Shown here in pieces: positions 5,248 to 20,000 of a stretch of DNA of 20,000 nucleotides (positions are counted from its first letter, which is position 1; every line of letters starts with the position of its first letter). The position numbers were made by a program, and so were the translations under genes. The DNA is from an uncultured virus (IMG/VR IMGVR_UViG_3300046009_012017) (Duplodnaviria; Heunggongvirae; Uroviricota; Caudoviricetes): IMG/VR virus record IMGVR_UViG_3300046009_012017. The stretch is one strand, 5' to 3'. Below the pieces are notes generated by a model. That model ran no database searches, was not told where the DNA came from, and worked only from the letters and a program-made list of their open reading frames with translations.

Positions 5248-8211
5248 TTGATTGGATTAGTAATTACTGGTAGAACATATAATCCAGAAACATACGAGAT
5301 TTCTATAGAATCAGTATTAGCGAAAGTTATAGATACTGGTATTTCGAGTCTAAGATTTTGGACTAGTTATAGCAGAGATCAATTCTCTGCTTCTGTTGAT
5401 TTTTTGTATTGCGCTAAATGGGACGGGACAACATTTTCGTCCTCTGACGTAGTTAGAATACCCGCGTGTTTATTAACATCAATTTCCGGTGCAACTGTTG
5501 ACACTTCTGTTACTGGATTAGTAAACGGATTTCCACAGGTATTTTCTAAAGAAAATCCATTCGGAGATCCATCTTTAGTGGAAAATACAGGTGGAATCAT
5601 ATCGAAAGTAAAATGCCCCGTTATTTATTTTAATGGCGCCAATAGATTGGATTCTTTGCTTGGTGTTTCTGATTTTCTAATTTGCTATCCAACAACTTCT
5701 ATTTCACCTTTAACTTTTGATGAATCATCTCTAATATATTTAGATGTCTCTAAATCCAATTTCATATCCCCAACATTTGTTCCTCCTACCCCTGGAGGTG
5801 GCGGAACATCAGGAAGTAGTGGTACTAGCGGTACTAGCGGTGTGGGTACTAGTGGTACTGGAGGAACTAGTGGTACTTCGGGGACCAGTGGGATAGGAAT
5901 ATCTGGTAGCTCTGGAACATCTGGAACATCTGGAACTTCATTCTTTGGTGTTACTAGTGGATCTAGTGGGACTTCCGGATCTGGATCTAGTGGGACTTCA
6001 GGAACAAGCGGATCTTCAGGAACAAGAGGAACATCAGGATCGTCCGGATCTAGCGGAACAAGTGGATCTTCAGGATCTTCAGGAACTAGTGGTTCTAGCG
6101 GTACTTCAGGATCTGGGTCTAGTGGAACGAGCGGATCTAGTGGAACCAGTGGTTCTTCTGGTATATCTGGGTCTAGCGGTACTAGTGGTTCTAGTGGATC
6201 TTCAGGAACATCAGGAACTAGTGGATCGTCAGGAACTTCTGGATCTAGTGGATCGTCAGGAACTAGCGGATCGTCGGGAACAAATGGAACATCGGGTAGT
6301 TCAGGAAGTAGCGGATCTTCAGGAACTTCAGGTACAGACGGCACCCCGGGCATAGACGGTAATGATTCTTCAAATAGCGGTAGATGGATTTATGCTGCTA
6401 CTACTACTCCTGGAAGTGGAAATTTTGGAACAGATGATTCTGTAATGAGTTTAATTGAATATGTCTACATAAATACGGATGCTGCAAACGGAGCAGATTA
6501 TTCTACATGGCTTTCCGGAGTAGACAGTATACATGATCTCGGTTACCCTGTCTATTTACAAATCACACAAGTAGGTTCTAACAATATTATCGGTATTTGG
6601 AGAGTTATATCCATTACTTCAGGTAGTACTTACGAGTTTCAAGTTGATACGCCACTTGTGGCGAATGGTACCATATCAGATATATGTACAATATCATGGG
6701 TATACAATGGGATAAACGGTACATCCGGATCTAGTGGATCTTCAGGCTCTTCAGGATCTAGTGGAACTTCAGGATCTAGTGGAACAGACGGAACTAGTGG
6801 AACATCAGGATCTTCAGGAACAGACGGAACTAGTGGAACAGACGGAACTAGTGGATCCTCAGGAACAGACGGAACATCAGGATCTAGTGGAACAGACGGA
6901 ACTAGTGGATCTTCAGGAACAGACGGAACATCAGGATCTAGTGGAACAGACGGAACTAGTGGATCTTCAGGAACAGACGGAACATCAGGATCAAGTGGAA
7001 CAGACGGAACTAGTGGATCCTCAGGAACTAGTGGATCTTCCGGTTCCTCGGGAACAAGTGGATCTAGTGGAACATCTGGAACAACCCCAATAGGAGTTCT
7101 GAATTATCAACAGACTCAAGGAACTCAGGTGACAATTAATGCGGGAGCAACTGGTACAGTAGTTACTGCTCCTGTGATTACTACAACAGGTAAGCCAGTA
7201 CAAATTATAGTAACTGGTGATGCTAACCCCAACTCCGGAGCGGGAGCTTGGTGTAGACTTCAATTGTTCAGGGACTCTACAGCAATTGGAAAATCCGTCC
7301 AGGCTGAATCAAGTGCATCTAACGAGAATATCCCTTACGCTTTAAATCTTATAGATACGCCTTCTACCGGAACATATACATATTCATTAAGAGCGACTTC
7401 AGTAAACGGAAGTAATTTCCAATTTGGCGAATCTGATGGTCCGGTAATAAATGTTATAGAGTTAGCAGGTTCAGGATCTTCAGGAACATCAGGAACATCA
7501 ATAACCATAGCAAATGATGCAGATACTAGATTAGTAACTGCCAATGGAAATGGAACATTGAACGGGGAAGGGAATTTGACATTTAATGGATCTGTTCTTT
7601 CTGTTACAGGTACATTATCTACCACTGGAAATACCACAATAAACGGGGAGCTCACAGTAGGTACTAGCACAGCATCAGGAAATGAAGGTGGGCAAATTGC
7701 TTTAGCACAAGCACCTTCCAGTGGTGGTCTTACGGGAGCTAATGTTAATATTGATGTCTACACAAATAGGCTAAGAATATTTGAAGGCGGAGGGAATGCT
7801 AGAGGTGTGTATATAGATCTTAGCAAAGCACCAGACGGTGTAGGCGGTGAGATAACATGGAAAGCTAGTGGAATAGTAAATTCCGGAATAGATGTTACAT
7901 TAGGAAATCTAAAAGCGAGATTGGCAGGTTCTGGAAATAGAAGTTTACAAGTATCAACTGTATCAGGAACTTATAGTGTTATCGGTAGTGGTGTATACTC
8001 GCAATCCGGTGTAGCAGGATCAACTCTATCATCTCTACTGACTATTACAACAACGCCTTCATATATTAATGCTGGATATAATTTCGGAACAGCAGGATCA
8101 ACAGACACATGGATTCTAATGGATGCGGCAAATACTATTGCTTGGCGTATAACACTGATAGTTGGTTTTTCCTACAATAGTAACCTCATTACTATAGAAA
8201 GATTATTGTAA
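5248..8211 (+). CDS. Large Gly-Ser-Thr collagen-like repeat protein, probable tail fibre/virion structural protein
   Basis: 987 aa with long Gly-X-Y tracts (GTS/GSS/GTD) separating beta-rich globular domains; TTG start. Confidence 0.75.
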   Translation: MIGLVITGRTYNPETYEISIESVLAKVIDTGISSLRFWTSYSRDQFSASVDFLYCAKWDGTTFSSSDVVRIPACLLTSISGATVDTSVTGLVNGFPQVFSKENPFGDPSLVENTGGIISKVKCPVIYFNGANRLDSLLGVSDFLICYPTTSISPLTFDESSLIYLDVSKSNFISPTFVPPTPGGGGTSGSSGTSGTSGVGTSGTGGTSGTSGTSGIGISGSSGTSGTSGTSFFGVTSGSSGTSGSGSSGTSGTSGSSGTRGTSGSSGSSGTSGSSGSSGTSGSSGTSGSGSSGTSGSSGTSGSSGISGSSGTSGSSGSSGTSGTSGSSGTSGSSGSSGTSGSSGTNGTSGSSGSSGSSGTSGTDGTPGIDGNDSSNSGRWIYAATTTPGSGNFGTDDSVMSLIEYVYINTDAANGADYSTWLSGVDSIHDLGYPVYLQITQVGSNNIIGIWRVISITSGSTYEFQVDTPLVANGTISDICTISWVYNGINGTSGSSGSSGSSGSSGTSGSSGTDGTSGTSGSSGTDGTSGTDGTSGSSGTDGTSGSSGTDGTSGSSGTDGTSGSSGTDGTSGSSGTDGTSGSSGTDGTSGSSGTSGSSGSSGTSGSSGTSGTTPIGVLNYQQTQGTQVTINAGATGTVVTAPVITTTGKPVQIIVTGDANPNSGAGAWCRLQLFRDSTAIGKSVQAESSASNENIPYALNLIDTPSTGTYTYSLRATSVNGSNFQFGESDGPVINVIELAGSGSSGTSGTSITIANDADTRLVTANGNGTLNGEGNLTFNGSVLSVTGTLSTTGNTTINGELTVGTSTASGNEGGQIALAQAPSSGGLTGANVNIDVYTNRLRIFEGGGNARGVYIDLSKAPDGVGGEITWKASGIVNSGIDVTLGNLKARLAGSGNRSLQVSTVSGTYSVIGSGVYSQSGVAGSTLSSLLTITTTPSYINAGYNFGTAGSTDTWILMDAANTIAWRITLIVGFSYNSNLITIERLL
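5803..6360 (+). repeat. Coding Gly-X-Y (GTS/GSS) tandem repeat, block 1
   Basis: 9-nt periodicity with varied synonymous codons. Confidence 0.9.
6718..7080 (+). repeat. Coding Gly-X-Y repeat, block 2, with a 27-nt GTDGTSGSS unit
   Basis: Near-identical copies of ggaacagacggaac(tagt/atca)ggatc(ttca/tagt). Confidence 0.9.
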
Positions 8212-8242: not shown

Positions 8243-8497
8243 ATGAATCATATCCAATTGTTCGAGAATTTTAACCAAGGCGGAAGAAAGGAATTTACTG
8301 ATGATGAAATTAATTATTATCAGAAATTATGGGACTGGCTTCCAGAAAAATACAGATATAATAGATTCTTTTCTAGTCTATGGGACCAGGCTAAAATGAA
8401 AAGGTCCCTCTCACAAAAACAATGGACCCAGTTAGAATTTCTTCTTAAGAATGGGAAATCTCAATACGAAGCCGGTATACTCCCTTCTAACTATTGA
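8243..8497 (+). CDS. Hypothetical protein with CTS-like N-terminus (MNHIQLFENF)
   Basis: 84-aa ORF; GATATATA at 8231-8238. Confidence 0.75.
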   Translation: MNHIQLFENFNQGGRKEFTDDEINYYQKLWDWLPEKYRYNRFFSSLWDQAKMKRSLSQKQWTQLEFLLKNGKSQYEAGILPSNY

Positions 8498-8541
8498 AAC
8501 AAAATATATTTTTCTAGATATTATTATTAATTTTACATAAT

Positions 8542-9147
8542 ATGTCTAACAATAAAAGAAGATGGGGAAAATCCAATAGATTTTCAGAGTCACACAGGGA
8601 TTGCTTACCACACAACTTCTGTTTATTTGATGTTGATGCAATATTGTTAGACGAAGAAAGAAATCCCAAATTTATATACGAAGGAAAATACAAGATCTTC
8701 TCCAAGGATAAAGGTGATTTTATAGAGACATTTTACAACCCAAAAAATACACAGGCTTTTTTTCTCAGGAATCTATCTCAAAAAATAGGTGTTTACATAC
8801 ACGAAGAGAGAACAAATAGATGGTGGTTCTTAAATGACAGAACACTAGAACAATCTGAAGATCCAAAATTGGATAAGGTTAAAACAGAGAATAAAATATA
8901 CATAGAAGACATTCTAAATAAATTTGCGCAAAGAATTTCTGGCGTATTTATTAGAACAGAAGGAGAAAAGCCTTCCGAAATGGAACAATATGGTGACTTT
9001 ATAGCACAAATAATTGATGTTCCTAAGGTATTAGTTAATGATGTGTTCGAAAGTGATTATATACACTTTAAAACAGGAGATAAGATGCTTAAGATAGAAG
9101 ATCAATCCGACTGGAAATCTTTGTGGGAAGATATGGATCTATTATAA
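8542..9147 (+). CDS. Possible PD-(D/E)xK nuclease-fold protein
   Basis: FDVDAILL...FIYEGKYK has D-x(n)-E-x-K spacing. The ORF is solid; the function is tentative. Confidence 0.5.
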   Translation: MSNNKRRWGKSNRFSESHRDCLPHNFCLFDVDAILLDEERNPKFIYEGKYKIFSKDKGDFIETFYNPKNTQAFFLRNLSQKIGVYIHEERTNRWWFLNDRTLEQSEDPKLDKVKTENKIYIEDILNKFAQRISGVFIRTEGEKPSEMEQYGDFIAQIIDVPKVLVNDVFESDYIHFKTGDKMLKIEDQSDWKSLWEDMDLL

Positions 9148-10488: not shown

Positions 10489-12114
10489 ATGTCAAGATTA
10501 AGTGGATTTGCAGAAAAGGAAACAGCTAAAAGAATAGCTGAAAATTCAAAATATGGTGCTTTTGCAGTAGAGAACTTCATGGGCGGAACTTCCTATGAGT
10601 TAAACCCTCTCAATACTTTAAAGATCATAGCTGCTTCTTCTATATTCGGCGAGCCTCAATATTACAGAGATGGATTAGGAACGCCTAAGAATATAGATAC
10701 GCTAACGAAATATTCTATATTCCCAGAGATGTTTAAGGATTCTAGAAGTGCTGTTGAAATATTCGAGAGCGCAATAGACTCTTCTTTAGATTATGATTTT
10801 AAGGGAACTTTAGATCTTGCTCTTGAGTTAAGAAGTGTTTACTTCATGAGATTAAATCCCTCCGTTATATTTGTAAGAGCTTCTCAGCATCCAAATAGGA
10901 TCGAATTCAACGAGATGGTCCCTGGATATATGAAATCCATTGGTAAAAAGATTGCAGAAAGACCGGACGATCTAACTAATCAATTTGAATATTACATGTT
11001 TAAAAACAAAGGTAAGGCAAAACTACCTTCCCTTGTTAAAAGAACATGGGCTGAACGATTAGAGGAGTTTAGCAGATACCAGTTAAACAAATACAAGGGG
11101 AAAAAACTTATCGATCTAGTTCGTATCTCACATGCTTCTAATGATGATATTAGTGAGCTAATGAGAACAGGAAAGCTTGAAATTAAAGAATCAGAAAAAA
11201 CATGGGAGTCTTTAAAGTCAGAGGGAAAAACTTGGAAAGAAATAACTGATACTATCGTTATTCCTCATATGGCTCTTCTAAGAAATCTTAGAGGAATATT
11301 CACAGAGGTCGAAGACAGATCGATAGCTGCTAGAATCTTAGCACAGTTAAAAGGCGGTGTGGAAAAAGGTAAGCAATTTCCTTTCCGCTATTGGTCAGCT
11401 TATAAAGCAATACAGGGTGCGGACGTCCATAACAAGCAAGCCATTCTGGATACACTCGAAGAATGTATAGATATTTCTGTTGGTAATATGCCTAAATTAA
11501 ACGGTAAAGTTGCTTGCTTGTCCGATAATTCAGGATCTTCGTGGGGATCTTGTAATAGCGAATATGGGACAGTAACTGTAGCAGAGATTGCTAATCTTTC
11601 GTCCCTTATTACTGCATTACAATCAGATGAAGGAGTGGTTGGAGTATTTGGTGACGAATTATCATTACAGCCAGTATCCAAAAGAAATGGTCTGCTAACC
11701 CAATTAAAAGAAACATCTGAAAGGGGTAGAAAACAAGGAGGAGGAACAGAAAATGGTATTTGGATTTTCTGGGATGATGCTATAAAAAATAAAGTTCACT
11801 ATGACACTGTATTCATATATTCAGATATGCAGGCAGGTCATGGAGGTCTTTATGGGCACAGACATACTGTAGGTTCATCGCCTTACGGATTCGACGGGCA
11901 AGGAGATGTACACGTTGACGTATTATCTATGGTACAGGAATACAGAAGAACTGTAAATTCTAAAGTTAATGTCTTCTGTGTACAAGTAGCTGGATACAAC
12001 AATTCAGTATTACCTGAGAATCTTTACCGAGGAGCAATCCTTGCCGGATGGACTGGTAAAGAGCCTTCATTCGCAAAATCAATTATTGACATCTGGGATT
12101 CTATAGAGTCATAA
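10489..12114 (+). CDS. TROVE-domain Ro60/Rsr-like RNA-binding protein with C-terminal vWA domain
   Basis: 541 aa. NFMGG.SY...L...AASSIFGEPQYY, YQLNKY, TWE, PHMALLRNLR, QFPFRYWSAY, MIDAS motif DNSGS, and YSDMQ. Confidence 0.93.
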   Translation: MSRLSGFAEKETAKRIAENSKYGAFAVENFMGGTSYELNPLNTLKIIAASSIFGEPQYYRDGLGTPKNIDTLTKYSIFPEMFKDSRSAVEIFESAIDSSLDYDFKGTLDLALELRSVYFMRLNPSVIFVRASQHPNRIEFNEMVPGYMKSIGKKIAERPDDLTNQFEYYMFKNKGKAKLPSLVKRTWAERLEEFSRYQLNKYKGKKLIDLVRISHASNDDISELMRTGKLEIKESEKTWESLKSEGKTWKEITDTIVIPHMALLRNLRGIFTEVEDRSIAARILAQLKGGVEKGKQFPFRYWSAYKAIQGADVHNKQAILDTLEECIDISVGNMPKLNGKVACLSDNSGSSWGSCNSEYGTVTVAEIANLSSLITALQSDEGVVGVFGDELSLQPVSKRNGLLTQLKETSERGRKQGGGTENGIWIFWDDAIKNKVHYDTVFIYSDMQAGHGGLYGHRHTVGSSPYGFDGQGDVHVDVLSMVQEYRRTVNSKVNVFCVQVAGYNNSVLPENLYRGAILAGWTGKEPSFAKSIIDIWDSIES

Positions 12115-13535: not shown

Positions 13536-14462
13536 ATGAATAATATACTATCTTTTAAAGATTTTGTTCTCTTTGAAGACAAAGAGACTAACACAACAAA
13601 AAAACTCTTCGATCTTGATAACAAGATGACTTATAAGACCATTAAGGATTTAAGAACATCTAAAATAGGAGACAAAAGATACACTTTCTTCTGTGTTGGA
13701 AGCGGAATGGAAGCTTATGCAAATTCATTCTTAGAAAAGGATAAAGAGAGAGGCGAGGCGCTTCAAAAAATTGCAAACAACAAAGATAAAACATTAGTCT
13801 TTAGCGAGCAGGGAATATACGTAGTATCTGAGGCGGTATTTAACGGACTAGTTTCTCTTTCAACAACTATCTTTACATACGTTCCAGATGGATCTATAAC
13901 AGCAGGAATTAGTATAACAAGGGTTTTTAAGCTTATTAATGTTTACTACAATAATAAAGGAAAAGCACCATTCGATAGTATGAAGGAAGATCCGGCAGCA
14001 ATAGCAAAAATAATAATATCGGATCTTTATAAATTGGCGGATTCGTCACCTAAGGCATCAGAGGCGGTATCTGTTTTAACAGTAGCACTTTATAAATCTG
14101 CCCCTTCATCATTTAAAACAATACCTAATTTCTTAGAAGATTGCGTCTATAATACAGCAAAGGACCTAAATCTAAAATCTGTAAAAGTTGGACAGAATAT
14201 AGAAGATTTCTATAAAGTAGCACAAAATACTCTGGATAATCTTAATGTACCAATTCTTAAAAATATAGAAATGGGTCTTGATAAAATGTCTGCTATAATA
14301 GAAAAAGGAATAAGAAAGACTAATATATTTTCAACAAAGATAGGTAAAGAAGCTGGTGAGGCTTTAAAAGCAGCTCAAGAAAGAATAGCTCCTACAGGTA
14401 AAGCTATAGCCTCTAAGAGTAAACCTATATGGGATTCTATATTTGGAAAAAAATCGAAATAA
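13536..14462 (+). CDS. Hypothetical protein with CTS-like N-terminus (MNNILSFKDFVLFE)
   Basis: 308-aa ORF. Confidence 0.8.
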   Translation: MNNILSFKDFVLFEDKETNTTKKLFDLDNKMTYKTIKDLRTSKIGDKRYTFFCVGSGMEAYANSFLEKDKERGEALQKIANNKDKTLVFSEQGIYVVSEAVFNGLVSLSTTIFTYVPDGSITAGISITRVFKLINVYYNNKGKAPFDSMKEDPAAIAKIIISDLYKLADSSPKASEAVSVLTVALYKSAPSSFKTIPNFLEDCVYNTAKDLNLKSVKVGQNIEDFYKVAQNTLDNLNVPILKNIEMGLDKMSAIIEKGIRKTNIFSTKIGKEAGEALKAAQERIAPTGKAIASKSKPIWDSIFGKKSK

Positions 14463-14499
14463 TTCCTGAAATCGTTTTTTTTATTTATGTTAAACCCTC

Positions 14500-14535
14500 T
14501 ATATTTGTGAAACAAAACAAAAGGAACGATATATA
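14500..14535 (+). promoter_or_regulatory. Promoter region of tRNA operon 1 (TATATTTG -7 element at 14500-14507; GATATATA at 14528-14535)
   Basis: Both motifs lie upstream of the leader ORF. Confidence 0.5.
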
Positions 14536-14543
14536 ACAGATAT

Positions 14544-14618
14544 ATGAAAAATCTAAACAACATATTACCTATATCATTAAGACCGTCGATAAGACGATCT
14601 CTAAAGGTCCTGTGTTAG
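14544..14618 (+). CDS. Putative attenuator leader peptide 1 (MKNLNNILPISLRPSIRRSLKVLC)
   Basis: 24-codon ORF; central codons match the downstream tRNAs, and the 3' end overlaps the antiterminator strand. Confidence 0.7.
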   Translation: MKNLNNILPISLRPSIRRSLKVLC

Positions 14619-14673
14619 TTTTCAATATATACTAAACTAAAAAACCGGGACCTTTAAAAGTCCCGGTTTTTTT
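14602..14673 (+). terminator. Attenuator 1: antiterminator (14602-14612/14646-14656) versus terminator (14645-14651/14660-14666 plus T7)
   Basis: TAAAGGTCCTG pairs with CGGGACCTTTA; alternatively CCGGGAC pairs with GTCCCGG, followed by TTTTTTT. Confidence 0.8.
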
Positions 14674-14674
14674 A

Positions 14675-14686
14675 TGTTCTTTGAAA
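14675..14686 (+). promoter_or_regulatory. boxA-like element
   Basis: TGTTCTTTGAAA 5 nt before the first tRNA; an identical copy is at 19589-19600. Confidence 0.65.
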
Positions 14687-14691
14687 TAATT

Positions 14692-14780
14692 GGAGAGGTG
14701 GCAGAGTTGGTTTAATGCACCTGTCTTGAAAACAGACGTAGTGAAAGTTACCGGGGGTTCGAATCCCTCCCTCTCCGCCA
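14692..14780 (+). tRNA. tRNA-Ser(TGA)
   Basis: Cloverleaf, loop CTTGAAA, long variable arm, encoded CCA. Confidence 0.95.
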
Positions 14781-14783
14781 ATT

Positions 14784-14857
14784 GGTCCGATAGCTCAGCT
14801 GGATAGAGCAACTGCCTTCTAAGCAGTAGGTCGCAGGTTCGAATCCTGCTCGGATCA
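14784..14857 (+). tRNA. tRNA-Arg(TCT)
   Basis: ACTGC-CTTCTAA-GCAGT anticodon arm; canonical T arm. Confidence 0.95.
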
Positions 14858-14863
14858 CTATAT

Positions 14864-14939
14864 CGGGATGTAGATCAGTTGGTAGATCGCCTGGTTTGGG
14901 ACCAGGAGGCCCCAGGTTCGAGTCCTGGTATCCCGACCA
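14864..14939 (+). tRNA. tRNA-Pro(TGG)
   Basis: CCTGG-TTTGGGA-CCAGG anticodon arm; encoded CCA. Confidence 0.95.
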
Positions 14940-14940
14940 T

Positions 14941-15014
14941 AGAGATGTAGCTCAATTGGTTAGAGCACATGCCTTATACGCATGCGGTCACGAGTTCGAC
15001 TCTCGTCGTCTCTA
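14941..15014 (+). tRNA. tRNA-Ile(TAT)
   Basis: CATGC-CTTATAC-GCATG anticodon arm; AGAGATG/CGTCTCT acceptor stem; A73. Confidence 0.88.
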
Positions 15015-15018
15015 CTTA

Positions 15019-15092
15019 GGTCCCTTAGCTCAGTAGGTTAGAGCAACTGACTCATAATCAGTAGGTCCACGGTTCGAGCCCGTGAGGGACCA
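15019..15092 (+). tRNA. tRNA-Ile2(CAT), lysidine type (elongator Met less likely)
   Basis: GGTCCCTTAGCTCAG...GACTCATAATC...AGGGACCA closely resembles the ileX-type tRNA body. Confidence 0.85.
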
Positions 15093-15107
15093 CAAAATTA
15101 ATAATCT

Positions 15108-15188
15108 GCCTGGGTGGTGAAATTGGTAGACACGTTCGGCTTAAGATCGAATGCGAAATGCGTGAGGGTTCGAGTCCCTCCTCGGGTA
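15108..15188 (+). tRNA. tRNA-Leu(TAA)
   Basis: TTCGG-CTTAAGA-TCGAA anticodon arm; long variable arm. Confidence 0.92.
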
Positions 15189-15193
15189 CATAT

Positions 15194-15296
15194 ATAAGAG
15201 TGGCGGAAGCGAGATCATTTATGATCCGATGGAGAGACGCTAGGGTGTCATGCCCGAGAACGAAAGTTCATGTTGGTTCAAGTCCAACCTCTTGTA
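15194..15296 (+). ncRNA. Aberrant tRNA-like RNA (D-loop hairpin insertion, non-canonical anticodon loop)
   Basis: ATAAGAG/CTCTTGT acceptor stem, GTTGG-TTCAAGT-CCAAC T arm, GAAC-GAAA-GTTC variable arm. Confidence 0.65.
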
Positions 15297-15315
15297 CTTT
15301 TTTAATTATAAATAA

Positions 15316-15603
15316 CTATACAGTTAATTTTTCTACCTTAGCTACTGAATATTTTTTACCCTCTCCGTAATTTCCTCCAGGTGTTTCATTTAAAGTAACT
15401 TTAAAATAGTAACCTGAAACTGAATTACTTTTAATAGAGTAAACAAGATCAGACTTTTGAGTTACTGAATCTATTGATTGCATACCCATTTTAGATGCAA
15501 CAGTATCGCTAGAAATTATTGATTTTATTTTTTCTGCTGTAGAATAAAAAGGCGCAGCAGCCTCATTCATTATTTCGTTTTTAAAATCTTCGAATCTTTT
15601 CAT
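15316..15603 (-). CDS. Hypothetical protein with CTS-like N-terminus (MKRFEDFKNEIMNE)
   Basis: 95-aa ORF. Confidence 0.75.
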   Translation of the reverse strand: MKRFEDFKNEIMNEAAAPFYSTAEKIKSIISSDTVASKMGMQSIDSVTQKSDLVYSIKSNSVSGYYFKVTLNETPGGNYGEGKKYSVAKVEKLTV

Positions 15604-15616
15604 TTCTTATTATATT

Positions 15617-16168
15617 TTACTTAGCCTCTTTAATTCTGAAGTATCCTCGGTGATCGGTTTTACCTGGTTCTACACCATCTTCGAATTTACAATATCCAGT
15701 AGAATTAAAGAAGTTCCATTCTTCTCTTCTGCCTTTACTAAGTTTATCCTGTGGCATTAAAGATCTATTATATTCTTGATTTTCTTGGTTAATTCTCTTA
15801 TACATTCCATTATAAAATGTAGATGTGCTAAGTAAATTCGTAGCTTCTTCCATTAATCTTCTATTGATATTATAGTCAAATATAGCCTCATGAATAGAAA
15901 TCTCTGAAATGCCTCTTCTATAGCTAATCCATTGCGATATAATTCCACCATAATTATATGGTGTATAAGCTAAATCCCCTACGTAAAAAAGATTAAAATA
16001 TGGAGAATTCTCTTTGCTGTGATCGAACAACCTTATGTTAGTATTAAAATATGGTACAGTTCCTCCGAATTCTTTCATTCTATTATGGAATCCAGGAAGT
16101 ATCTCTAATGTTATCGATGTGGGATTATTATTTGTATCAAATCCTTCGAATAGCTTAATATGTTTCAT
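15617..16168 (-). CDS. Hypothetical protein with CTS-like N-terminus (MKHIKLFEGF)
   Basis: 183 aa; GATATATA on the minus strand at 16173-16180. Confidence 0.8.
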   Translation of the reverse strand: MKHIKLFEGFDTNNNPTSITLEILPGFHNRMKEFGGTVPYFNTNIRLFDHSKENSPYFNLFYVGDLAYTPYNYGGIISQWISYRRGISEISIHEAIFDYNINRRLMEEATNLLSTSTFYNGMYKRINQENQEYNRSLMPQDKLSKGRREEWNFFNSTGYCKFEDGVEPGKTDHRGYFRIKEAK

Positions 16169-16252
16169 ATATTATATATCCATAGTATGATCCATAAATA
16201 AGAAACAAAATCTATTATAGGATGTAAAATTGTTAATACAAAACGTAAGATT

Positions 16253-16945
16253 GTGATTGAAGAATTAAAAGATTTTTATTGGGACTGGATGTCAGATGGA
16301 ACGGAACAGGGAAACTATCATAAAGAAACCATGATAGGTGAGATATTTGTCCAAAGAGCCTATGAAAGATTCTTTGAAGTAGATGAGGGAGATATCGTTG
16401 TAGATATTGGAGCTAGTGTAGGTCCTTTTACAAAGTCAATTCTTCATAAAAATCCAAAACACGTATTTTGTTTAGAACCAAGCTATTCCGAATTTAAATG
16501 TCTAGTTAAAAATACCATAGGTTACCCTGTTACACAAGTAAATAAAGGAATATGGGAAACAAACGGAACGGCTAATAGCGATCAACTATTCGGTGGTGAA
16601 TCTGTAATGGAAGCTCTAACATTCCAAACGTTTATAGATCTTTTCTCGATAGAAAAAATAGACTTTCTTAAAACTGATTGTGAAGGGGGTGAGTACGAGA
16701 TATTCAAAACCGAAAATATAGAATACCTAAAAAATAATGTTAGTAAAATAACTGGAGAATGGCACTTAAGAAGCCCTGAGAATAAATTAAGATTTAGAAA
16801 TTTTAGAGATAATATACTTTCACAATTTCAAAAATATGAAGTTTATTCTGTCGATGGTGTCGACATTAAATGGGATTTATGGAATGAGCATTTTATAGAA
16901 TATTATGAGGAGATAATATTGTATATAGATAACAGAACCAATTAA
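16253..16945 (+). CDS. FkbM-family SAM-dependent methyltransferase
   Basis: IVVDIGASVGPF, VFCLEP, IDFLKTDCEGGEYEIF and GEWH motifs. Confidence 0.9.
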   Translation: MIEELKDFYWDWMSDGTEQGNYHKETMIGEIFVQRAYERFFEVDEGDIVVDIGASVGPFTKSILHKNPKHVFCLEPSYSEFKCLVKNTIGYPVTQVNKGIWETNGTANSDQLFGGESVMEALTFQTFIDLFSIEKIDFLKTDCEGGEYEIFKTENIEYLKNNVSKITGEWHLRSPENKLRFRNFRDNILSQFQKYEVYSVDGVDIKWDLWNEHFIEYYEEIILYIDNRTN

Positions 16946-16967
16946 GACTGTGGTTATGAGATATATA

Positions 16968-17408
16968 TTATTTGTTTTCGATAAGAAGCTCTCCAAGAAC
17001 TTCTATCTTGCCGACAAGCTCCTGGAATTCCACTTGAGTGATATTCATAGAGTTTCTAGTTGCTTCATAAAGATCAGTTAATAGATCATCATACTCTCCT
17101 TTAAGATTATCCATATCTAATTCCCCGTCTACACTCTTTTGATAGTATGGAAGTTTAACATGAAAATGGTGATATGTTAATAAAGCATCTCCACCTTTTT
17201 CTTTTGCAGCCTTGGATATTTTTGTTGCGCCAGCTAATCTATTCTCTGAAAATTCTTGTAGTGTCTCTTTTTCTTCGTTTACATCGGAATTTTCTTTTAC
17301 ACAGTTAGGTACAGGTCTACCGTCTTTATCCTTGGTTCCAATTTGCTTGTAACCAGCCCAGCAAGGTCCTTTTTTTTCGAGTATAAATTTGTCGTAATCT
17401 AGTATCAT
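16968..17408 (-). CDS. Hypothetical phage protein with PCWxGYxxxGxKxKxGRxVPNCV motif
   Basis: Motif I recall from T4-like/large phage proteins; N-terminus MILDYDKFILE; GATATATA on the minus strand at 17413-17420. Confidence 0.75.
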   Translation of the reverse strand: MILDYDKFILEKKGPCWAGYKQIGTKDKDGRPVPNCVKENSDVNEEKETLQEFSENRLAGATKISKAAKEKGGDALLTYHHFHVKLPYYQKSVDGELDMDNLKGEYDDLLTDLYEATRNSMNITQVEFQELVGKIEVLGELLIENK

Positions 17409-17445
17409 ATCCTATATATCACGAAAGATATATACATTACCTAAT

Positions 17446-17811
17446 ATGAAAAATATTTATACCTATAACGACTTCATTAATGAAGGCAAAGATCCAAAGA
17501 AAGGTTCAGGTAAAAAACCTAAAGGATCCGGTAGAAGACTTTACACGGATGAAAATCCGGACGATACTGTACCGATAAAATTCAGAACTAAGGAAGATGT
17601 ACAGGAAACTGTTAACAGCAGTGCTTTTAAATCTAAAACACACCAAAGACAATCTCAGATTTTAAATCTAATAGAACAAAGGCTTCGTGTTGCAGTAAGA
17701 GAAGCAAAAGATCCATCCACTAAGAGAAGACTAAAGAGAGCACACGAATATGCTTTACTAAAATGTGAATCTTCTAAAAGAAAAACCCAGAGGGTTAAAG
17801 ATAACAGGTGA
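17446..17811 (+). CDS. Basic hypothetical phage protein (KDPKKGSGKKPKGSGRRLYTDENP motif)
   Basis: N-terminus MKNIYTYNDFINE; GATATATA at 17427-17434. Confidence 0.78.
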   Translation: MKNIYTYNDFINEGKDPKKGSGKKPKGSGRRLYTDENPDDTVPIKFRTKEDVQETVNSSAFKSKTHQRQSQILNLIEQRLRVAVREAKDPSTKRRLKRAHEYALLKCESSKRKTQRVKDNR

Positions 17812-17833
17812 CTCTATTAATAATAAGAATTCG

Positions 17834-18202
17834 ATGAATAATCATATAAAGATAACCGGACTAGGAATAGAAATATACAATAAAGATTTTGTATCTATGA
17901 AATGGGGCAAGGCATTCGATATGGCTTTAAGATTAGGAGATGGATGGAGACTTCCTACCATAGAAGAAATGAGAATAGTAAGATCCATAAGAGATGTAGG
18001 AGGAATTGGAAATTTTCCTCGATATAAAGAATTTGACGATTATTATTACTGGACATCTAGAGAGGGGGAAACATTAAACTCAAGAACAACTTTAGCAGAC
18101 GGATCTGTTGCTTACGCATATTTTTTTGATATAGGTGATGGGGAATTTTCACACAATAAAAAATCATACGAACTTAGGGTTAGGTTTGTCAGAGATATAT
18201 AG
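17834..18202 (+). CDS. DUF1566/Lcl C-terminal-like (C-type lectin fold) protein
   Basis: W..A...A..LGDGWRLPTIEE...YYWTS...AY..F..G...VRFVR; probable start ATG 17834. Confidence 0.75.
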   Translation: MNNHIKITGLGIEIYNKDFVSMKWGKAFDMALRLGDGWRLPTIEEMRIVRSIRDVGGIGNFPRYKEFDDYYYWTSREGETLNSRTTLADGSVAYAYFFDIGDGEFSHNKKSYELRVRFVRDI

Positions 18203-18205
18203 AAT

Positions 18206-19057
18206 ATGCCAACATCAAGACCTTTCGCATATAATCCAACACAAGCAACAATTTCTGGAACTACAAATGTAGGTACATTATGCGTAGGTGTATCTGCTTT
18301 AAACTATGGTGCAAATCCAGGAGGACTAACTTGGTGGATGGGTCCGGACGAGGATAATTCTTATATAATAGCTAAAGATGTACCATCCGGCGATTTTCCA
18401 ACACCAGTAGGTAGTATAGGTACTGTACAATTCTGGGGATGCTCTAATACAGATGAAGCTTTTAGAAGTACAGTACAAATAATAAGCGGTATTACACAAG
18501 CATCTGCTTCAGCTGCTAATGCTTGGTTAACAGCAAATAACTATTGGACTAATCGGGATCCGTATCTTGCAGGCTTATACAAAACAACTTACAGTGGTTA
18601 TTTTAATGATAATGTTAGTTTCTTTGCAACAGCAACTCCTGCATCTGTAGGCGGAAATCCTGCTACATCAGTACAAACTACTTCTATATTTGAACCTTCT
18701 CAGAATGATGGAGAAAATTTCAGTTGTCAGTGGTTAGGATATTTCAAACCAACCACTACAGAAACATATACTTTTTTCACATCATCTGATGATGCGTCAT
18801 ATGTGTGGATAGGTTCAAATGCACAGACAGGTTTTACCACAGGAAACTCTACAGTTAATAATGGAGGACTTCACGGAACTTTAGAGAAATCAGGCTCAAT
18901 TGCATTAACTGCTGGTACATATTATCAAATAAGAATACAATTTGGAGAACTAAGTGGAGGCGATGTTATGACATTTAATTTCTCAACCCCTACTATCTCG
19001 AAAACAACCAATGTAACAGGACTAGTATTTTATAATCCGTCCACTAATGGATTCTAA
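18206..19057 (+). CDS. PA14/GLEYA-domain protein, probable virion carbohydrate-binding protein
   Basis: NFSCQWLGYFKPTTTETYTFFTSSDDASYVWIG...NNGGLHG...L.AG.YYQIRIQFGE..GG. Confidence 0.88.
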   Translation: MPTSRPFAYNPTQATISGTTNVGTLCVGVSALNYGANPGGLTWWMGPDEDNSYIIAKDVPSGDFPTPVGSIGTVQFWGCSNTDEAFRSTVQIISGITQASASAANAWLTANNYWTNRDPYLAGLYKTTYSGYFNDNVSFFATATPASVGGNPATSVQTTSIFEPSQNDGENFSCQWLGYFKPTTTETYTFFTSSDDASYVWIGSNAQTGFTTGNSTVNNGGLHGTLEKSGSIALTAGTYYQIRIQFGELSGGDVMTFNFSTPTISKTTNVTGLVFYNPSTNGF

Positions 19058-19093
19058 TTCAATAATTAGATATATAGACTATAAAAAAAAGAA

Positions 19094-19372
19094 ATGAAAT
19101 ACCTAAAAAAATATCAAGACAATAATCGCAATATTAACGAAGGGTTTTGGGATTCCATTTTTGGAAAACCCACTGTTGATGACGCTGCTCACGATTCTCT
19201 TAGAGGCCAAGGATTTAGTCACAGAGGTAAAGACGAAGAAAACTACATCATGTTCCAGGGACAAAAATTTTATCCTGAGCAGATTCAGTATGATGACGTT
19301 TACTCGACTAAGCCTATCCCAAGAGTAGAGAATGGGATGCTTATAGTTGCTAATCCTGCTTGGAATCTATAA
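19094..19372 (+). CDS. Hypothetical protein with CTS-like N-terminus (MKYLKKYQD...INE)
   Basis: 92 aa; GATATATA at 19069-19076. Confidence 0.75.
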   Translation: MKYLKKYQDNNRNINEGFWDSIFGKPTVDDAAHDSLRGQGFSHRGKDEENYIMFQGQKFYPEQIQYDDVYSTKPIPRVENGMLIVANPAWNL

Positions 19373-19412
19373 AAAAAATAAAAAATCATTTTTTTATACT
19401 GAAACTTTTATC

Positions 19413-19420
19413 TACTTTTG
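19413..19420 (+). promoter_or_regulatory. Bacteroidota-type -7 element upstream of tRNA operon 2
   Basis: TACTTTTG preceded by TGAAACTTTT, the same context as at 9965-9984. Confidence 0.5.
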
Positions 19421-19451
19421 TAGTATATAAACAAAACAACAAAAAAATTCA

Positions 19452-19529
19452 ATGCAACAATTTCTAAATATCGGAATAGATGCTCAGCTCGATCTTCTTG
19501 AGGATATTGGAAAGTGTCAGAGGAAATAA
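19452..19529 (+). CDS. Putative attenuator leader peptide 2 (MQQFLNIGIDAQLDLLEDIGKCQRK)
   Basis: 25-codon ORF enriched in GAT/CTN/GAG codons; the 3' end overlaps the antiterminator strand. Confidence 0.68.
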   Translation: MQQFLNIGIDAQLDLLEDIGKCQRK

Positions 19530-19579
19530 ATTTATATAAAGATACAATTTAAACCTCTGATAACCTCAGAGGTTTTTTT
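19515..19579 (+). terminator. Attenuator 2: antiterminator (19515-19523/19554-19562) versus terminator (19551-19560/19566-19575 plus T tract)
   Basis: TGTCAGAGG pairs with CCTCTGATA; alternatively AAACCTCTGA pairs with TCAGAGGTTT, followed by TTTT. Confidence 0.8.
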
Positions 19580-19588
19580 GTTTTTATA

Positions 19589-19600
19589 TGTTCTTTGAAA
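19589..19600 (+). promoter_or_regulatory. boxA-like element
   Basis: TGTTCTTTGAAA 4 nt before tRNA-Glu. Confidence 0.65.
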
Positions 19601-19604
19601 TTAT

Positions 19605-19676
19605 GGTCGGTTCATCTAGGGGTCAGGATACAAGGTTTTCATCCTTGTCACACGGGTTCGAATCCCGTACCGACTA
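19605..19676 (+). tRNA. tRNA-Glu(TTC)
   Basis: CAAGG-TTTTCAT-CCTTG anticodon arm; canonical T arm. Confidence 0.93.
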
Positions 19677-19751
19677 CAAAGGGGGAAAATAGTTAGAAGG
19701 GCCTTTCCTGAAAGATGGCACGCTAGGCCCGTATTTGAACCCTTTAATTTA

Positions 19752-19825
19752 GGTCCGTTAGTAGAGTTGGTCACAACGCCGCCCTGTCACGGCGGAGGTC
19801 ATGGGTTCGAATCCCATACGGACCG
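19752..19825 (+). tRNA. tRNA-Asp(GTC)
   Basis: CCGCC-CTGTCAC-GGCGG anticodon arm; G73. Confidence 0.93.
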
Positions 19826-19832
19826 CAAACAT

Positions 19833-19905
<73 letters not shown>

Positions 19906-19909
19906 CTAA

Positions 19910-19990
19910 GCCCAGGTGGTGAAATGGTATACACGCTAGTCTTAGGAACTAGTGACGTAAGTCGTGAGGGTTCGAGTCCCTCCCTGGGTA
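19910..19990 (+). tRNA. tRNA-Leu(TAG)
   Basis: CTAGT-CTTAGGA-ACTAG anticodon arm; long variable arm. Confidence 0.94.
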
Positions 19991-20000
19991 CTATGAAGAT

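What the first reader, a model, noticed from the sequence alone, without database searches (positions are those of the whole stretch)
14544..15188. Phage tRNA operon 1 appears controlled by a multi-codon-sensing leader-peptide attenuator matched to its own tRNAs
Seen: a 24-codon ORF (14544-14618) whose codons 7-19 read ATA TTA CCT ATA TCA TTA AGA CCG TCG ATA AGA CGA TCT. Twelve of these 13 fall in codon boxes read by the downstream tRNAs: Ser-UGA, Arg-UCU, Pro-UGG, Ile-UAU/Ile2-CAU and Leu-UAA (CCT and TCT assume extended U34 wobble); CGA is the exception. The ORF's last codons (TAAAGGTCCTG, 14602-14612) can form an 11-bp antiterminator with 14646-14656, extended by TTAGTTT/AAACTAA. This pairing is mutually exclusive with the terminator CCGGGAC/GTCCCGG-T7. 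Established: this is the trp/his/pheST attenuation geometry, in which a ribosome at the stop codon masks the antiterminator and a ribosome stalled upstream frees it. Inference: the phage transcribes these tRNAs only when decoding of those codons is slow, for example after host tRNA depletion or anticodon-nuclease defence. I know of no described translational attenuator controlling a phage tRNA operon.
Basis: partly seen in the sequence, partly recalled or inferred. Interest (0 to 1): 0.93.

Follow-up and report, generated by a model that had tools for sequence, protein, structure and literature searches.

The report
Leader-peptide attenuator gating phage tRNA genes
An uncultured phage puts a tiny test gene written in the codons its own tRNAs read, a switchable transcription stop and a ribosomal-RNA-type anti-stop signal in front of its tRNA genes, so it probably makes more tRNA when ribosomes read those codons slowly.

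Summary
The 24-codon ORF (14544-14618), the terminator (14645-14673) and the competing 11-bp pairing between the ORF end and the terminator's 5' arm are all present and exceed chance (0 of 1000 shuffles).

- 17 of 18 distinct homologous leaders keep the ATG.
- The variable codons 8-12 take only TTA, ATA, TCN or CCN.
- Folding adds a 1:2 anti-antiterminator, giving the classic four-region attenuator.
- Two sister modules precede the phage group's other tRNA operons, with different leaders and terminators but the same geometry. One lies in the window (19413-19605).
- Across 12 distinct modules from many viral contigs, leader codons match their own tRNA set better than any of 200,000 permutations.

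The conserved box after the T-run (14674-14687) is a boxA-like rRNA antitermination site, not a promoter. tRNA transcription therefore has to pass through the terminator.

Translation and regulated read-through were not shown; the RNA data were uninformative. Ten literature searches found no published case. This scan has noted the same kind of system on other DNA. It is a new variant of ribosome-mediated attenuation.

The parts
14500..14507 (+). Promoter-like -7 box TATATTTG, followed by the A-rich 5' UTR GTGAAACAAAACAA
   Evidence: Invariant in 17 of the 18 aligned leaders. The same 19-nt motif precedes ordinary protein genes in other viral contigs (L026, L029, L034, L035). The match to the Bacteroidota TAnnTTTG consensus is recalled, not tested. 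The window-wide count of TANNTTTG is not enriched (26 against 22.7 expected).
14528..14535 (+). GATATATA gene-start motif, 8 nt before the leader ATG
   Evidence: 11 copies in the window against 2.5 expected (0 of 200 shuffles reach 11). By my reading of the ORF list, 10 of the 11 lie 5-25 nt upstream of an ORF start.
14544..14618 (+). Leader ORF of 24 codons plus TAG (MKNLNNILPISLRPSIRRSLKVLC). The sensing codons are about 7-16.
   Evidence: 10 of 23 codons are strictly cognate to the operon's tRNAs against 4.0 expected (p 0.0035).
14559..14570 (+). Region 1 (AACATATTACCT), which pairs with region 2 in the untranslated fold (anti-antiterminator)
   Evidence: Present in the full-length minimum-energy structures of the window, L003, L005 and L008 (4 of 4 printed). 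The sequence is nearly invariant.
14580..14600 (+). Small hairpin inside the ORF (AGACCGTCGATAAGACGATCT), a possible RNA polymerase pause hairpin
   Evidence: Folds. Its core was the search key, so its invariance is partly by construction.
14601..14621 (+). Region 2, the antiterminator 5' strand. It overlaps the last five codons and the stop codon (14616-14618).
14634..14659 (+). Region 3: the AAACTAA extension, the terminator 5' arm CCGGGAC (14645-14651) and the loop
14660..14673 (+). Region 4: the terminator 3' arm GTCCCGG and the T7 run
   Evidence: The hairpin is -12.4 kcal/mol.
14674..14687 (+). boxA-like element ATGTTCTTTGAAAT (rRNA-type antitermination site)
   Evidence: 12 of 13 positions match the B. 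subtilis rrn boxA-like consensus quoted in PMC13753749 (passages). The extended motif occurs upstream of 23S and 16S rRNA in three Bacteroidota MAG contigs. It is also present after the terminators of op2 and op3.
14692..15189 (+). tRNA operon 1: Ser-TGA, Arg-TCT, Pro-TGG, Ile-TAT, CAT (Met or Ile2), Leu-TAA
19413..19604 (+). Sister module before tRNA operon 2. It comprises the TACTTTTG box, a 25-codon ORF (19452-19529, MQQFLNIGIDAQLDLLEDIGKCQRK), an antiterminator strand (19514-19524), a terminator (19554-19579) and a boxA-like element (19588-19601).

Best explanation
This is a ribosome-mediated (leader-peptide) transcription attenuator that gates a phage tRNA operon.

Proposed mechanism:
- Transcription starts at the conserved promoter-like box near 14500.
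- A ribosome translates the 24-codon leader. Codons 7-16 (ATA TTA CCT ATA TCA TTA AGA CCG TCG ATA) are those read by the six tRNAs downstream.
- If these codons are decoded quickly, the ribosome reaches the TAG at 14616 and covers region 2 (14601-14621). Region 3 then pairs with region 4, and RNA polymerase terminates at the T7 run.
- If the ribosome lags on those codons, it covers region 1 and leaves region 2 free. Region 2 pairs with region 3, the terminator cannot form, and polymerase reads on.
- Polymerase then transcribes the boxA-like site and, by analogy with rRNA operons, becomes termination-resistant for the untranslated tRNA array.
- Without any ribosome, region 1 pairs with region 2 and the terminator forms.

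The circuit is a negative feedback loop on decoding capacity for the operon's own codons.

Shown by computation here: the anatomy, the alternative folds, conservation, and the statistical match of leader codons to tRNAs. Inferred: translation of the ORF, ribosome footprint geometry, direction of control, boxA function, and the physiological trigger.
For: 1. Anatomy and alternative folds in the window. The terminator-arm duplex falls at the ORF end, with 0 of 1000 shuffles reaching it.

2. Conservation of the op1 module:
- It sits directly before tRNA-Ser in all four loci found through the upstream gene. It travels with the tRNAs where extra genes are inserted, in L001 and L004.
- 18 distinct leaders were aligned (A1), and 17 keep ATG.
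- The only indel inside the ORF is a 1-nt deletion that creates TAA at the first bases of region 2. Several indels lie between the stop codon and the T-run.
- The terminator-containing fold is the minimum-energy fold in 17 of 18.

3. Codon-level selection:
- The variable codons 8-12 take 14 states, all in the Leu-TTA, Ile-ATA, Ser-TCN or Pro-CCN boxes (10 of 14 by strict wobble). Codons 2-5 take 16 states, of which 3 are in those boxes.
- In the op3 leader, 7 codons vary only synonymously among 13 loci. A C-G to U-A compensatory change in the terminator keeps a G.U pair in the antiterminator.

4. Sister modules with different sequences and the same geometry: the duplex test gives op2 1 of 1000 and op3 0 of 1000 (folds).

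5. Specificity within one phage group:
- op1 leader: 10/23 on its own set (4.0 expected) but 7/23 on the op3 set (10.9 expected).
- op3 leader: 26/34 on its own set (16.1 expected, p 0.00055) but 1/34 on the op1 set.
- Leader 1 uses only ATA for Ile and mostly AGA for Arg. Leader 3 uses ATC/ATT and CGC/CGA, although the phage's genes use ATA for 60% of Ile and AGA for 80% of Arg.
- The op3 leader contains all 15 amino acids of its 15 tRNAs. This occurs in 13 of 4384 real 35-residue windows and 422 of 200,000 simulated peptides.

6. Co-variation across 12 distinct modules:
- The own-set Z sum is 16.57 against -0.1 +/- 3.9 for permutations (0 of 200,000 reach it).
- Own tRNA species covered by at least one cognate codon: 11.27 of 12 against 8.31 +/- 0.62 (0 of 200,000).
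- Without the window group's three modules the counts are 19 and 34 of 200,000.

7. Gene-like start context: the GATATATA motif, the promoter and UTR shared with protein genes, and phage genes that lack Shine-Dalgarno motifs (2 of 26).

8. The boxA-like site begins directly after the T-run. This leaves no room for a separate promoter, so tRNA transcripts must come through the terminator.
Against: - No direct evidence exists for translation or for regulated read-through. The RNA runs held only tRNA-like fragments.
- One homolog (L008) has ATA in place of ATG yet keeps the rest. Its tRNA array is also degraded to Arg-TCT, Ile-TAT and Glu-TTC.
- Some leader codons are not cognate to the operon: CGA in leader 1 and AGT/AGC Ser codons in leader 3.
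- The op2 match is not significant by strict wobble (5/24 against 3.9 expected; 8/24, p 0.057, if Leu-TAG reads all CTN).
- Two of the 12 modules show no enrichment (L131 Z -0.14, L150 Z -0.09).
- Codons 13-19 coincide with an invariant hairpin, so codon and RNA constraints cannot be separated there.
- The terminator and antiterminator stems of op1 hardly vary, so they give no covariation support.
- A hairpin plus U-run also precedes the boxA-like motif in one bacterial rRNA leader (L287). The hairpin could therefore be part of the antitermination site.
- The host is unknown. Whether transcription and translation are coupled in it is also unknown.
Confidence: 0.78

Rival explanations
1. It is an attenuator, but it senses translation in general (ribosome availability, or coupling of ribosome and polymerase) rather than the specific codons of its tRNAs. 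The codon match would then be a weak by-product.
For: - The op2 leader is not significantly matched by strict wobble.
- L131 and L150 have own-set Z scores near 0.
- The op3-type leaders sample 19 of 20 amino acids, which would also suit a generic translation test.
Against: - In the permutation tests, 0 of 200,000 permutations reach the observed value, and 19 of 200,000 without the window group.
- Within one phage, each leader is depleted in the other operons' codons.
- The Ile and Arg codon choices run against the phage's own usage.
- Variable codons stay inside the cognate boxes.
Confidence: 0.1
2. The hairpin plus U-run is the structural (boxB-like) part of an rRNA-type antitermination site with boxA. 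It is not a regulated terminator, and the small ORF is incidental.
For: - The boxA-like motif follows directly.
- In the Cyclobacteriaceae rRNA leader L287, a hairpin and T6 precede the same motif.
- PMC13753749 (passages) describes a small hairpin immediately before the boxA-like sequence in B. subtilis rrn operons.
Against: - The phage hairpins are canonical intrinsic terminators: 7-8 G+C-rich pairs followed by T6-T9.
- This reading does not explain the significant pairing of each terminator arm with the end of an ORF in three different sequences.
- It also does not explain the leader-tRNA co-variation.
Confidence: 0.05
3. The promoter, ORF and terminator form an independent small-protein or small-RNA gene, and the tRNAs are transcribed from their own promoter downstream.
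For: - The unit has its own promoter-like box and a strong terminator.
- The C-terminal halves of the peptides are conserved.
Against: - Only 0-9 nt separate the T-run from the boxA-like motif. In the window, the tRNA starts 4 nt after that motif (5 nt counting from the 11-nt search key), so no separate promoter fits.
- The N-terminal half of the peptide varies freely.
- A 1-nt deletion removes the last five residues in one subgroup without loss of the module.
- This reading leaves the codon-tRNA match unexplained.
Confidence: 0.04
4. Stalling is caused by the nascent peptide (an arrest peptide such as RPSIRRS), as in SecM, TnaC or ErmCL, and not by tRNA supply.
For: Codons 13-19 (R P S I R R S) are invariant in all homologs found and are rich in Pro and Arg.
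Against: - Those codons show no synonymous variation and form a hairpin. Their core was also my search key, so RNA constraint and ascertainment explain the invariance.
- Leaders of other modules share no such motif.
- This reading does not explain the match to tRNA sets.
Confidence: 0.03

Closest known systems
Multivalent leader-peptide attenuators of amino-acid operons (thr and ilvGMEDA leaders; trp, his, leu, pheA of enterobacteria)
   Same: Both have a promoter and a short ORF rich in regulatory codons of several kinds. Both have four RNA regions with 1:2, 2:3 and 3:4 pairings, a stop codon placed so that a terminating ribosome masks region 2, and an intrinsic terminator before the structural genes. 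Rfam's Thr_leader model gives a sub-threshold match at 14556-14676 (32.3 bits against a gathering score of 55).
   Different: - The controlled genes are tRNAs, not biosynthetic enzymes.
- The regulatory codons are defined by the anticodons of the operon itself, down to codon choice (ATA against ATY, AGA against CGN).
- A boxA-like site follows the terminator.
- The element is phage-borne and lacks a Shine-Dalgarno sequence.
- There is no sequence homology to these leaders (the Rfam match is below threshold).
pheM-pheST attenuator of E. coli (leader peptide controlling an aminoacyl-tRNA synthetase operon; recalled)
   Same: Both are leader-peptide attenuation applied to a component of the translation apparatus that serves the sensed codons.
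   Different: pheM has a single codon type (Phe) and its output is a synthetase. Here the output is the tRNAs, several codon types are sensed, and three parallel modules occur per phage.
T-box riboswitches (recalled)
   Same: Both use a terminator/antiterminator decision that reports on the state of a specific tRNA.
   Different: A T-box binds uncharged tRNA directly and needs no translation. No T-box match was found here, and here an ORF is the sensor.
rrn boxA / Nus-factor antitermination (E. coli consensus UGCUCUUUAACA and B. subtilis AUGAUCUUUGAAA, as quoted in PMC13753749, passages read; PMC2724277)
   Same: The motif ATGTTCTTTGAAAT lies at 14674-14687 and 19588-19601. The extended form also lies upstream of 16S and 23S rRNA in Bacteroidota contigs.
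   Different: Here it heads phage tRNA arrays and sits directly behind a conditional terminator. Binding of NusB/S10 was not tested.
Translation-sensing leaders of resistance genes (ermC, cat; recalled)
   Same: Both use a short leader ORF whose ribosome occupancy switches a downstream RNA structure.
   Different: Those respond to drug-stalled ribosomes and mostly control translation. Here the signal is codon-specific and transcription is controlled.

Membership tests
Ribosome-mediated leader-peptide transcription attenuator | Short ORF in the 5' leader, downstream of a promoter and in a translatable context | tested here: met
   - The ORF spans 14544-14618.
- A conserved promoter-like box and UTR are shared with protein genes.
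- The GATATATA gene-start motif is present.
- ATG is kept in 17 of 18 aligned leaders.
- Translation itself was not shown.
Ribosome-mediated leader-peptide transcription attenuator | Regulatory codons related to the product of the controlled genes | tested here: met
   - 10 of 23 codons are strictly cognate against 4.0 expected, p 0.0035.
- 0 of 4956 gene windows are as rich.
- In permutations over 12 modules, 0 of 200,000 reach the observed value.
Ribosome-mediated leader-peptide transcription attenuator | Intrinsic terminator between the leader ORF and the structural genes | tested here: met
   The scan finds it at 14639-14672. The hairpin is -12.4 kcal/mol with T7. It is kept in all 18 homologs, weakened in L001 to -7.3.
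Ribosome-mediated leader-peptide transcription attenuator | Antiterminator (2:3) mutually exclusive with the terminator (3:4) | tested here: met
   The local antiterminator is -13.7 to -19.9 kcal/mol in all 18 homologs. There is no covariation because the stems barely vary.
Ribosome-mediated leader-peptide transcription attenuator | Region 1 overlapping the regulatory codons pairs with region 2 (anti-antiterminator) | tested here: met
   Seen in the predicted minimum-energy folds of 4 of 4 printed homologs and. An op2 analogue, UCUUCU:AGAGGA, appears. This is prediction only.
Ribosome-mediated leader-peptide transcription attenuator | Stop codon placed so that a terminating ribosome covers region 2 | tested here: met
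   The stop codon lies at the 3' end of region 2 in op1 and op3 and 3 nt beyond it in op2. In the 19-codon variants it lies at the first bases of region 2. The ribosome footprint size is established knowledge, not measured here.
Ribosome-mediated leader-peptide transcription attenuator | Read-through rises when the cognate charged tRNA is scarce | not testable with these tools
   The RNA runs laid are contigs of tRNA-like fragments and cannot show ends or levels.
rrn-type boxA antitermination site | Match to the boxA consensus, located in the leader of a stable-RNA operon | tested here: met
   14674-14687 matches 12 of 13 positions of the B. subtilis consensus quoted in PMC13753749. The same extended motif lies before 23S (L254, L241) and 16S (L287).
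rrn-type boxA antitermination site | Binds NusB-S10 and makes polymerase termination-resistant | not testable with these tools
   No host is known, and no binding test was run.
T-box riboswitch | Conserved T-box sequence with Stem I and specifier loop | tested here: not met
   There is no T-box match in the Rfam scan of 14000-20000 at E up to 1.

The most novel reading that the evidence does not exclude
Phages with large tRNA sets, here probably phages of Bacteroidota, run each tRNA array as a decoding-capacity homeostat.
- Each array is headed by a 'codon census' mini-gene that contains at least one codon for nearly every tRNA it controls (mean coverage 94% over 12 modules).
- The array is transcribed only when ribosomes lag on those codons, for example after host tRNA loss through shut-off or anticodon-nuclease defence.
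- Transcription is then made processive by a boxA borrowed from the host's rRNA operons.

This would be the first case of ribosome-mediated attenuation controlling tRNA genes. It would also be a widespread, previously unnoticed layer of phage control over the translation apparatus.
Probability: 0.6. Interest if true: 0.92.

Novelty: new variant of a known kind. Interest (0 to 1): 0.86.

Why it matters
How phages regulate their own tRNA genes is largely unknown, and so is why they carry particular sets.

A leader written in the operon's own codons would make tRNA supply self-adjusting. It would also give the phage a direct read-out of the host's decoding capacity. That bears on codon-usage mismatch, host shut-off and tRNA-targeting defence systems.

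The finding extends a textbook mechanism (trp/his attenuation) to stable-RNA genes and to phages whose genes lack Shine-Dalgarno sequences. It links that mechanism to rRNA-type boxA antitermination.

The leader sequence predicts which tRNAs belong to one transcription unit. The modules are compact, portable sensors of codon-specific translation speed that could be tested and reused.

Tried and rejected
- **Own genome:** none is held.
- **Cultured phage relative:** none found. Megablast of 14300-15400 hit only tRNA pieces of cyanophages and others. Sensitive blastn of the leader gave two chance hits with E above 0.1.
- **Rfam:** only sub-threshold Thr_leader (32.3 of 55 bits) and other weak terminator-driven matches. 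These are not used as evidence of membership.
- **RNA evidence:** six RNA runs held about 10% of the sampled words. The four that were laid showed contigs over tRNA parts, many from other organisms, and nothing usable over the leader. No conclusion is drawn from this.
- **The box as a promoter:** I first considered the box after the T-run as a second promoter (-7 or -33 element) or a processing site. I rejected this once it matched boxA and turned up in rRNA operons.
- **TANNTTTG count:** not enriched window-wide (26 against 22.7 expected), so the host-promoter reading rests on position and conservation only.
- **Cellular genomes:** I found no bacterial tRNA operon of this design, but the scan was not exhaustive.
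- **Chance matches dropped:** 7 of the 16 loci were G+C-rich chance matches. L022 and L027 were unrelated to any op1 module, and L026, L028, L029, L034 and L035 carry the promoter/UTR motif before ordinary protein genes. L078, L079 and L087 were also chance matches.
- **Identity of the CAT tRNA** (Met or Ile2) was not tested.
- **Literature:** ten searches (and passages of PMC2965389) found no description of an attenuator before tRNA genes. Subscription journals are not covered.
Full report
**What is in the sequence.** One search shows an ATG at 14544 and a TAG at 14616-14618, with 24 sense codons between them.

ARAGORN and Rfam place six tRNAs at 14692-15189: Ser-TGA, Arg-TCT, Pro-TGG, Ile-TAT, CAT and Leu-TAA. 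A consensus scan finds an intrinsic terminator at 14639-14672.

Folding 14540-14690 gives the terminator. Folding 14540-14660, which withholds the terminator's 3' arm, gives the proposed antiterminator as the minimum-energy structure (-26.2 kcal/mol, z -4.4).

I then asked which part of the 101 nt upstream pairs best with the terminator's 5' arm. The answer is 14601-14616, the last codons and the stop codon, at -17.6 kcal/mol. None of 1000 dinucleotide shuffles reaches this.

**The window and its host.** The window is 35% G+C phage DNA. It carries a collagen-repeat tail fibre, a TROVE/Ro60-like protein and other phage genes. No genome is held for it and it has no close cultured relative.

Only 2 of 26 ORFs have a Shine-Dalgarno-like 4-mer upstream. 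A motif GATATATA is over-represented (11 copies against 2.5 expected, 0 of 200 shuffles reach 11). By my reading of the ORF list, 10 of the 11 copies lie 5-25 nt before an ORF start. One of them lies 8 nt before the leader ATG.

The promoter-like box TATATTTG and the UTR GTGAAACAAAACAA also precede ordinary protein genes in other viral contigs. So the leader ORF has the start context of a real gene in this system.

The TAnnTTTG box (recalled consensus), the missing Shine-Dalgarno motifs and the boxA data below point to a Bacteroidota host. This is an inference.

**Conservation of the op1 module.** Relatives were found in three ways: through the upstream 308-aa gene, through viral scans and through one metagenome scan. 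Together they gave 23 distinct 260-nt segments, of which 22 keep the ATG.
- The exception, L008, has ATA. Its tRNA array is reduced to Arg-TCT, Ile-TAT and Glu-TTC.
- The module always sits at the head of the tRNA array. It stays with the array where other genes are inserted upstream, as in L001 and L004.
- In the 18-sequence alignment A1, the only indel inside the ORF is a 1-nt deletion. It creates TAA at the first bases of the antiterminator strand and gives a 19-codon ORF. Several indels lie between the stop codon and the T-run.
- Codons 8-12 vary among homologs but take only 14 states: TTA/TCA/ATA, CCT/CCC, TTA/ATA/TCA/TCC/TCT, ATA/TCA and TCA/TTA. All lie in boxes read by the operon's tRNAs.
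- Codons 2-5 take 16 states, of which 3 are in those boxes.

**The full RNA design.** The terminator-containing fold is the minimum-energy fold of the whole leader in 17 of 18 homologs. In L050 the antiterminator fold is lower by 0.3 kcal/mol.

In the four structures I printed (window, L003, L005, L008), the ORF segment AACAUAUUACCU (codons 6-9) pairs with the ORF end AGGUCCUGUGUU, enclosing a small hairpin.

The model then reads as follows:
- A ribosome held on codons 7-16 covers region 1 and leaves region 2 free to block the terminator.
- A ribosome at the stop codon covers region 2, so the terminator forms.
- With no ribosome at all, regions 1 and 2 pair and the terminator forms.

Ribosome footprint sizes are established knowledge and were not measured here.

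**Sister modules.** The same layout is promoter box, A-rich UTR, short ORF, terminator and a conserved box. It recurs before tRNA operon 2 in this window (19413-19604; ORF 19452-19529; tRNAs Glu-TTC, Asp-GTC, CAT, Leu-TAG). It also recurs before a third operon of up to 15 tRNAs in the relatives.

The ORFs and terminators are unrelated in sequence. Yet in each case the best partner of the terminator's 5' arm is the ORF end next to the stop codon. The shuffle test gives op2 1 of 1000 and op3 0 of 1000 (folds).

The op3 leader has 35 codons in 13 of 13 loci.
- It contains all 15 amino acids of its 15 tRNAs, and 19 of the 20 amino acids overall.
- Such coverage occurs in 13 of 4384 real 35-residue windows and in 422 of 200,000 simulated peptides.
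- Seven of its codons vary only synonymously.
- A C-G to U-A compensatory change in the terminator leaves a G.U pair in the antiterminator.

The op2 leaders have 24, 25 or 29 codons in 11 loci and the window. They keep a core rich in Asp, Glu and Leu-CTN although the residues change.

**Codon statistics.** The background is 5268 codons from 26 ORFs of the window.

| Leader | Own tRNA set (strict wobble) | Expected | p |
|---|---|---|---|
| op1 | 10/23 | 4.0 | 0.0035 |
| op3 | 26/34 | 16.1 | 0.00055 |
| op2 | 5/24 | 3.9 | not significant |
| op2, if Leu-TAG reads all CTN | 8/24 | – | 0.057 |

Every off-diagonal comparison is at or below expectation. For example, the op3 leader scores 1/34 on the op1 set.

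The phage's genes use ATA for 60% of Ile codons and AGA for 80% of Arg codons. Leader 1 follows this (ATA three times, AGA twice). Leader 3 uses ATC/ATT and CGC/CGA, matching its Ile-GAT and Arg-ACG tRNAs.

No 13-codon window in the phage's genes reaches the density seen in leader 1 (0 of 4956).

**Co-variation beyond this phage group.** I scanned viral contigs for a T-run followed by the conserved box. These carry different leaders and different tRNA sets.

One example is L157. Its leader contains 13 consecutive codons (LPETYHNDQPEDN), all cognate to its nine tRNAs.

ORFs were picked only by their position relative to the antiterminator, without reference to tRNA content. Of 57 distinct module sequences, 55 had such an ORF. 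The two exceptions were L008 and a module cut by a locus end.

Clustering gave 15 leader types. I kept the 11 types with at least 4 tRNAs in the held DNA and split the window's op1 from L134. I dropped the L127, L176, L177 and L182 types, which had 1-2 tRNAs in truncated loci.

| Modules tested | Own-set Z sum | Permuted Z sum | Permutations reaching it | Coverage of own tRNA species | Permuted coverage | Permutations reaching it |
|---|---|---|---|---|---|---|
| All 12 | 16.57 | -0.1 +/- 3.9 | 0 of 200,000 | 11.27 of 12 | 8.31 +/- 0.62 | 0 of 200,000 |
| Without the window group's three | 9.84 | -0.03 +/- 2.61 | 19 of 200,000 | 8.27 of 9 | 6.63 +/- 0.43 | 34 of 200,000 |
| Also without L134 | 6.93 | -0.08 +/- 2.24 | 135 of 200,000 | 7.27 of 8 | 6.15 +/- 0.38 | 271 of 200,000 |

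Two modules (L131, L150) show no enrichment.

**The box after the terminator.** ATGTTCTTTGAAAT lies at 14674-14687 and again at 19588-19601. It matches 12 of 13 positions of the B. subtilis rrn boxA-like consensus and resembles the E. coli consensus. Both are quoted in PMC13753749 (passages read; also PMC2724277).

The extended form GTTCTTTGACATATTGG occurs between the spacer tRNAs and 23S rRNA in two Chitinophagaceae contigs. A slightly different form, GTTCTTTGACATTTTG, occurs about 110 nt before 16S rRNA in a Cyclobacteriaceae contig. According to that paper, this is where boxA sits in E. coli.

I therefore read the box as a boxA borrowed from host rRNA operons. boxA acts as RNA, and it begins 0-9 nt after the T-run. 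Productive tRNA transcripts must therefore start upstream and pass through the terminator. This argues against a separate tRNA promoter.

There is one caveat. In the Cyclobacteriaceae rRNA leader, a hairpin and a T-run also precede the motif. The hairpin might therefore belong to the antitermination site. That reading explains neither the ORF-end pairing nor the codon match.

**What is not shown.** Nothing here demonstrates translation of the ORF, termination at the T-run or a response to tRNA supply.

The RNA runs held only short parts of the stretch. When laid, they covered tRNA segments, many of them from other organisms.

The op1 stems hardly vary, so they give no covariation. Codons 13-19 coincide with an invariant hairpin whose core was my search key.

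**Comparison with known systems and novelty.** The mechanism is that of the multivalent leader-peptide attenuators, and all sequence-level defining features are met. It is not a homolog of any Rfam leader family and it is not a T-box.

What differs is the output (tRNA genes), the definition of the regulatory codons by the operon's own anticodons, the boxA that follows, and the phage setting.

Ten searches of the paper library found no description of such control: and passages of PMC2965389. Subscription journals are not covered.

Earlier notes of this scan describe the same kind of module on other genomes. One note judged its leader ORF to be a chance frame. I did not test those loci. My scans of independent viral contigs support the general claim.

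I rate this a new variant of a known kind, with high interest.

Noticed in passing
window 19413-19991: A second attenuator-like module precedes tRNA operon 2 (Glu-TTC, Asp-GTC, CAT, Leu-TAG). It has a 25-codon ORF at 19452-19529, a terminator at 19554-19579 and a boxA-like element at 19588-19601. A third module, with a 35-codon leader using 19 of 20 amino acids before up to 15 tRNAs, lies beyond the window in relatives (L041, L042, L043, L044).
   Followed up: yes
window 10489-12114: A 541-aa TROVE/Ro60-like RNA-binding protein (Pfam TROVE, phrog_850). It is 49.7% identical over 98% of its length to gp540 of Bacillus phage G. No Y-RNA match reached Rfam's threshold nearby. A weak YrlA match at 14884-14993 overlaps two tRNAs.
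   Followed up: partly
window 15193-15297: A roughly 105-nt element right after tRNA-Leu is closed by the stem UAUAAGAG/CUCUUGUA, has a T-arm-like hairpin (GGTTCAAGTCCAACC) and is followed by T6. ARAGORN does not call it and Rfam finds no match. The fold z-score is only -1.7. It could be a decayed tRNA, a tRNA-like RNA or the operon's terminator.
   Followed up: partly
window, 11 sites (e.g. 1631, 8231, 12817, 14528, 17427, 18194, 19069 on +; 5191, 16180, 17420 on -): The GATATATA motif is four-fold over-represented and sits 5-25 nt before ORF starts, in a phage whose genes lack Shine-Dalgarno motifs. It could be a phage promoter giving near-leaderless mRNAs, or a translation start signal.
   Followed up: partly
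L001 7044-7209; also L002, L004, L005, L013, L014: Several relatives carry a conserved insert of about 165 nt between tRNA-Arg and tRNA-Pro. The window lacks it. No Rfam match was found in L001. In L008 a related start is followed by a small ORF.
   Followed up: partly
L003 about 8490-8600; L041 (reverse complement) about 5880-5970: An element of about 100 nt lies between the op2 boxA-like box and tRNA-Glu. It is closed by GGAATAAGG/CCTTATTCC and followed by T6. It is absent from the window.
   Followed up: no
L287 541-625 (Cyclobacteriaceae MAG contig): In a bacterial rRNA leader, a hairpin (TCAGCA...TGCTGA) and T6 directly precede the same boxA-like motif about 110 nt before 16S rRNA. The layout resembles the phage terminator-boxA junction.
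   Followed up: no
L246 4-577 (Flavobacteriaceae MAG contig): Rfam places a tmRNA (4-379) overlapped at its 3' end by a group I intron match (365-577), next to a chance match of the box pattern.
   Followed up: no
window 5248-8211 and 18206-19057: A 987-aa tail-fibre-like protein with collagen triple-helix repeats, and a 283-aa protein with PA14/GLEYA carbohydrate-binding domains. These are likely host-recognition proteins.
   Followed up: no
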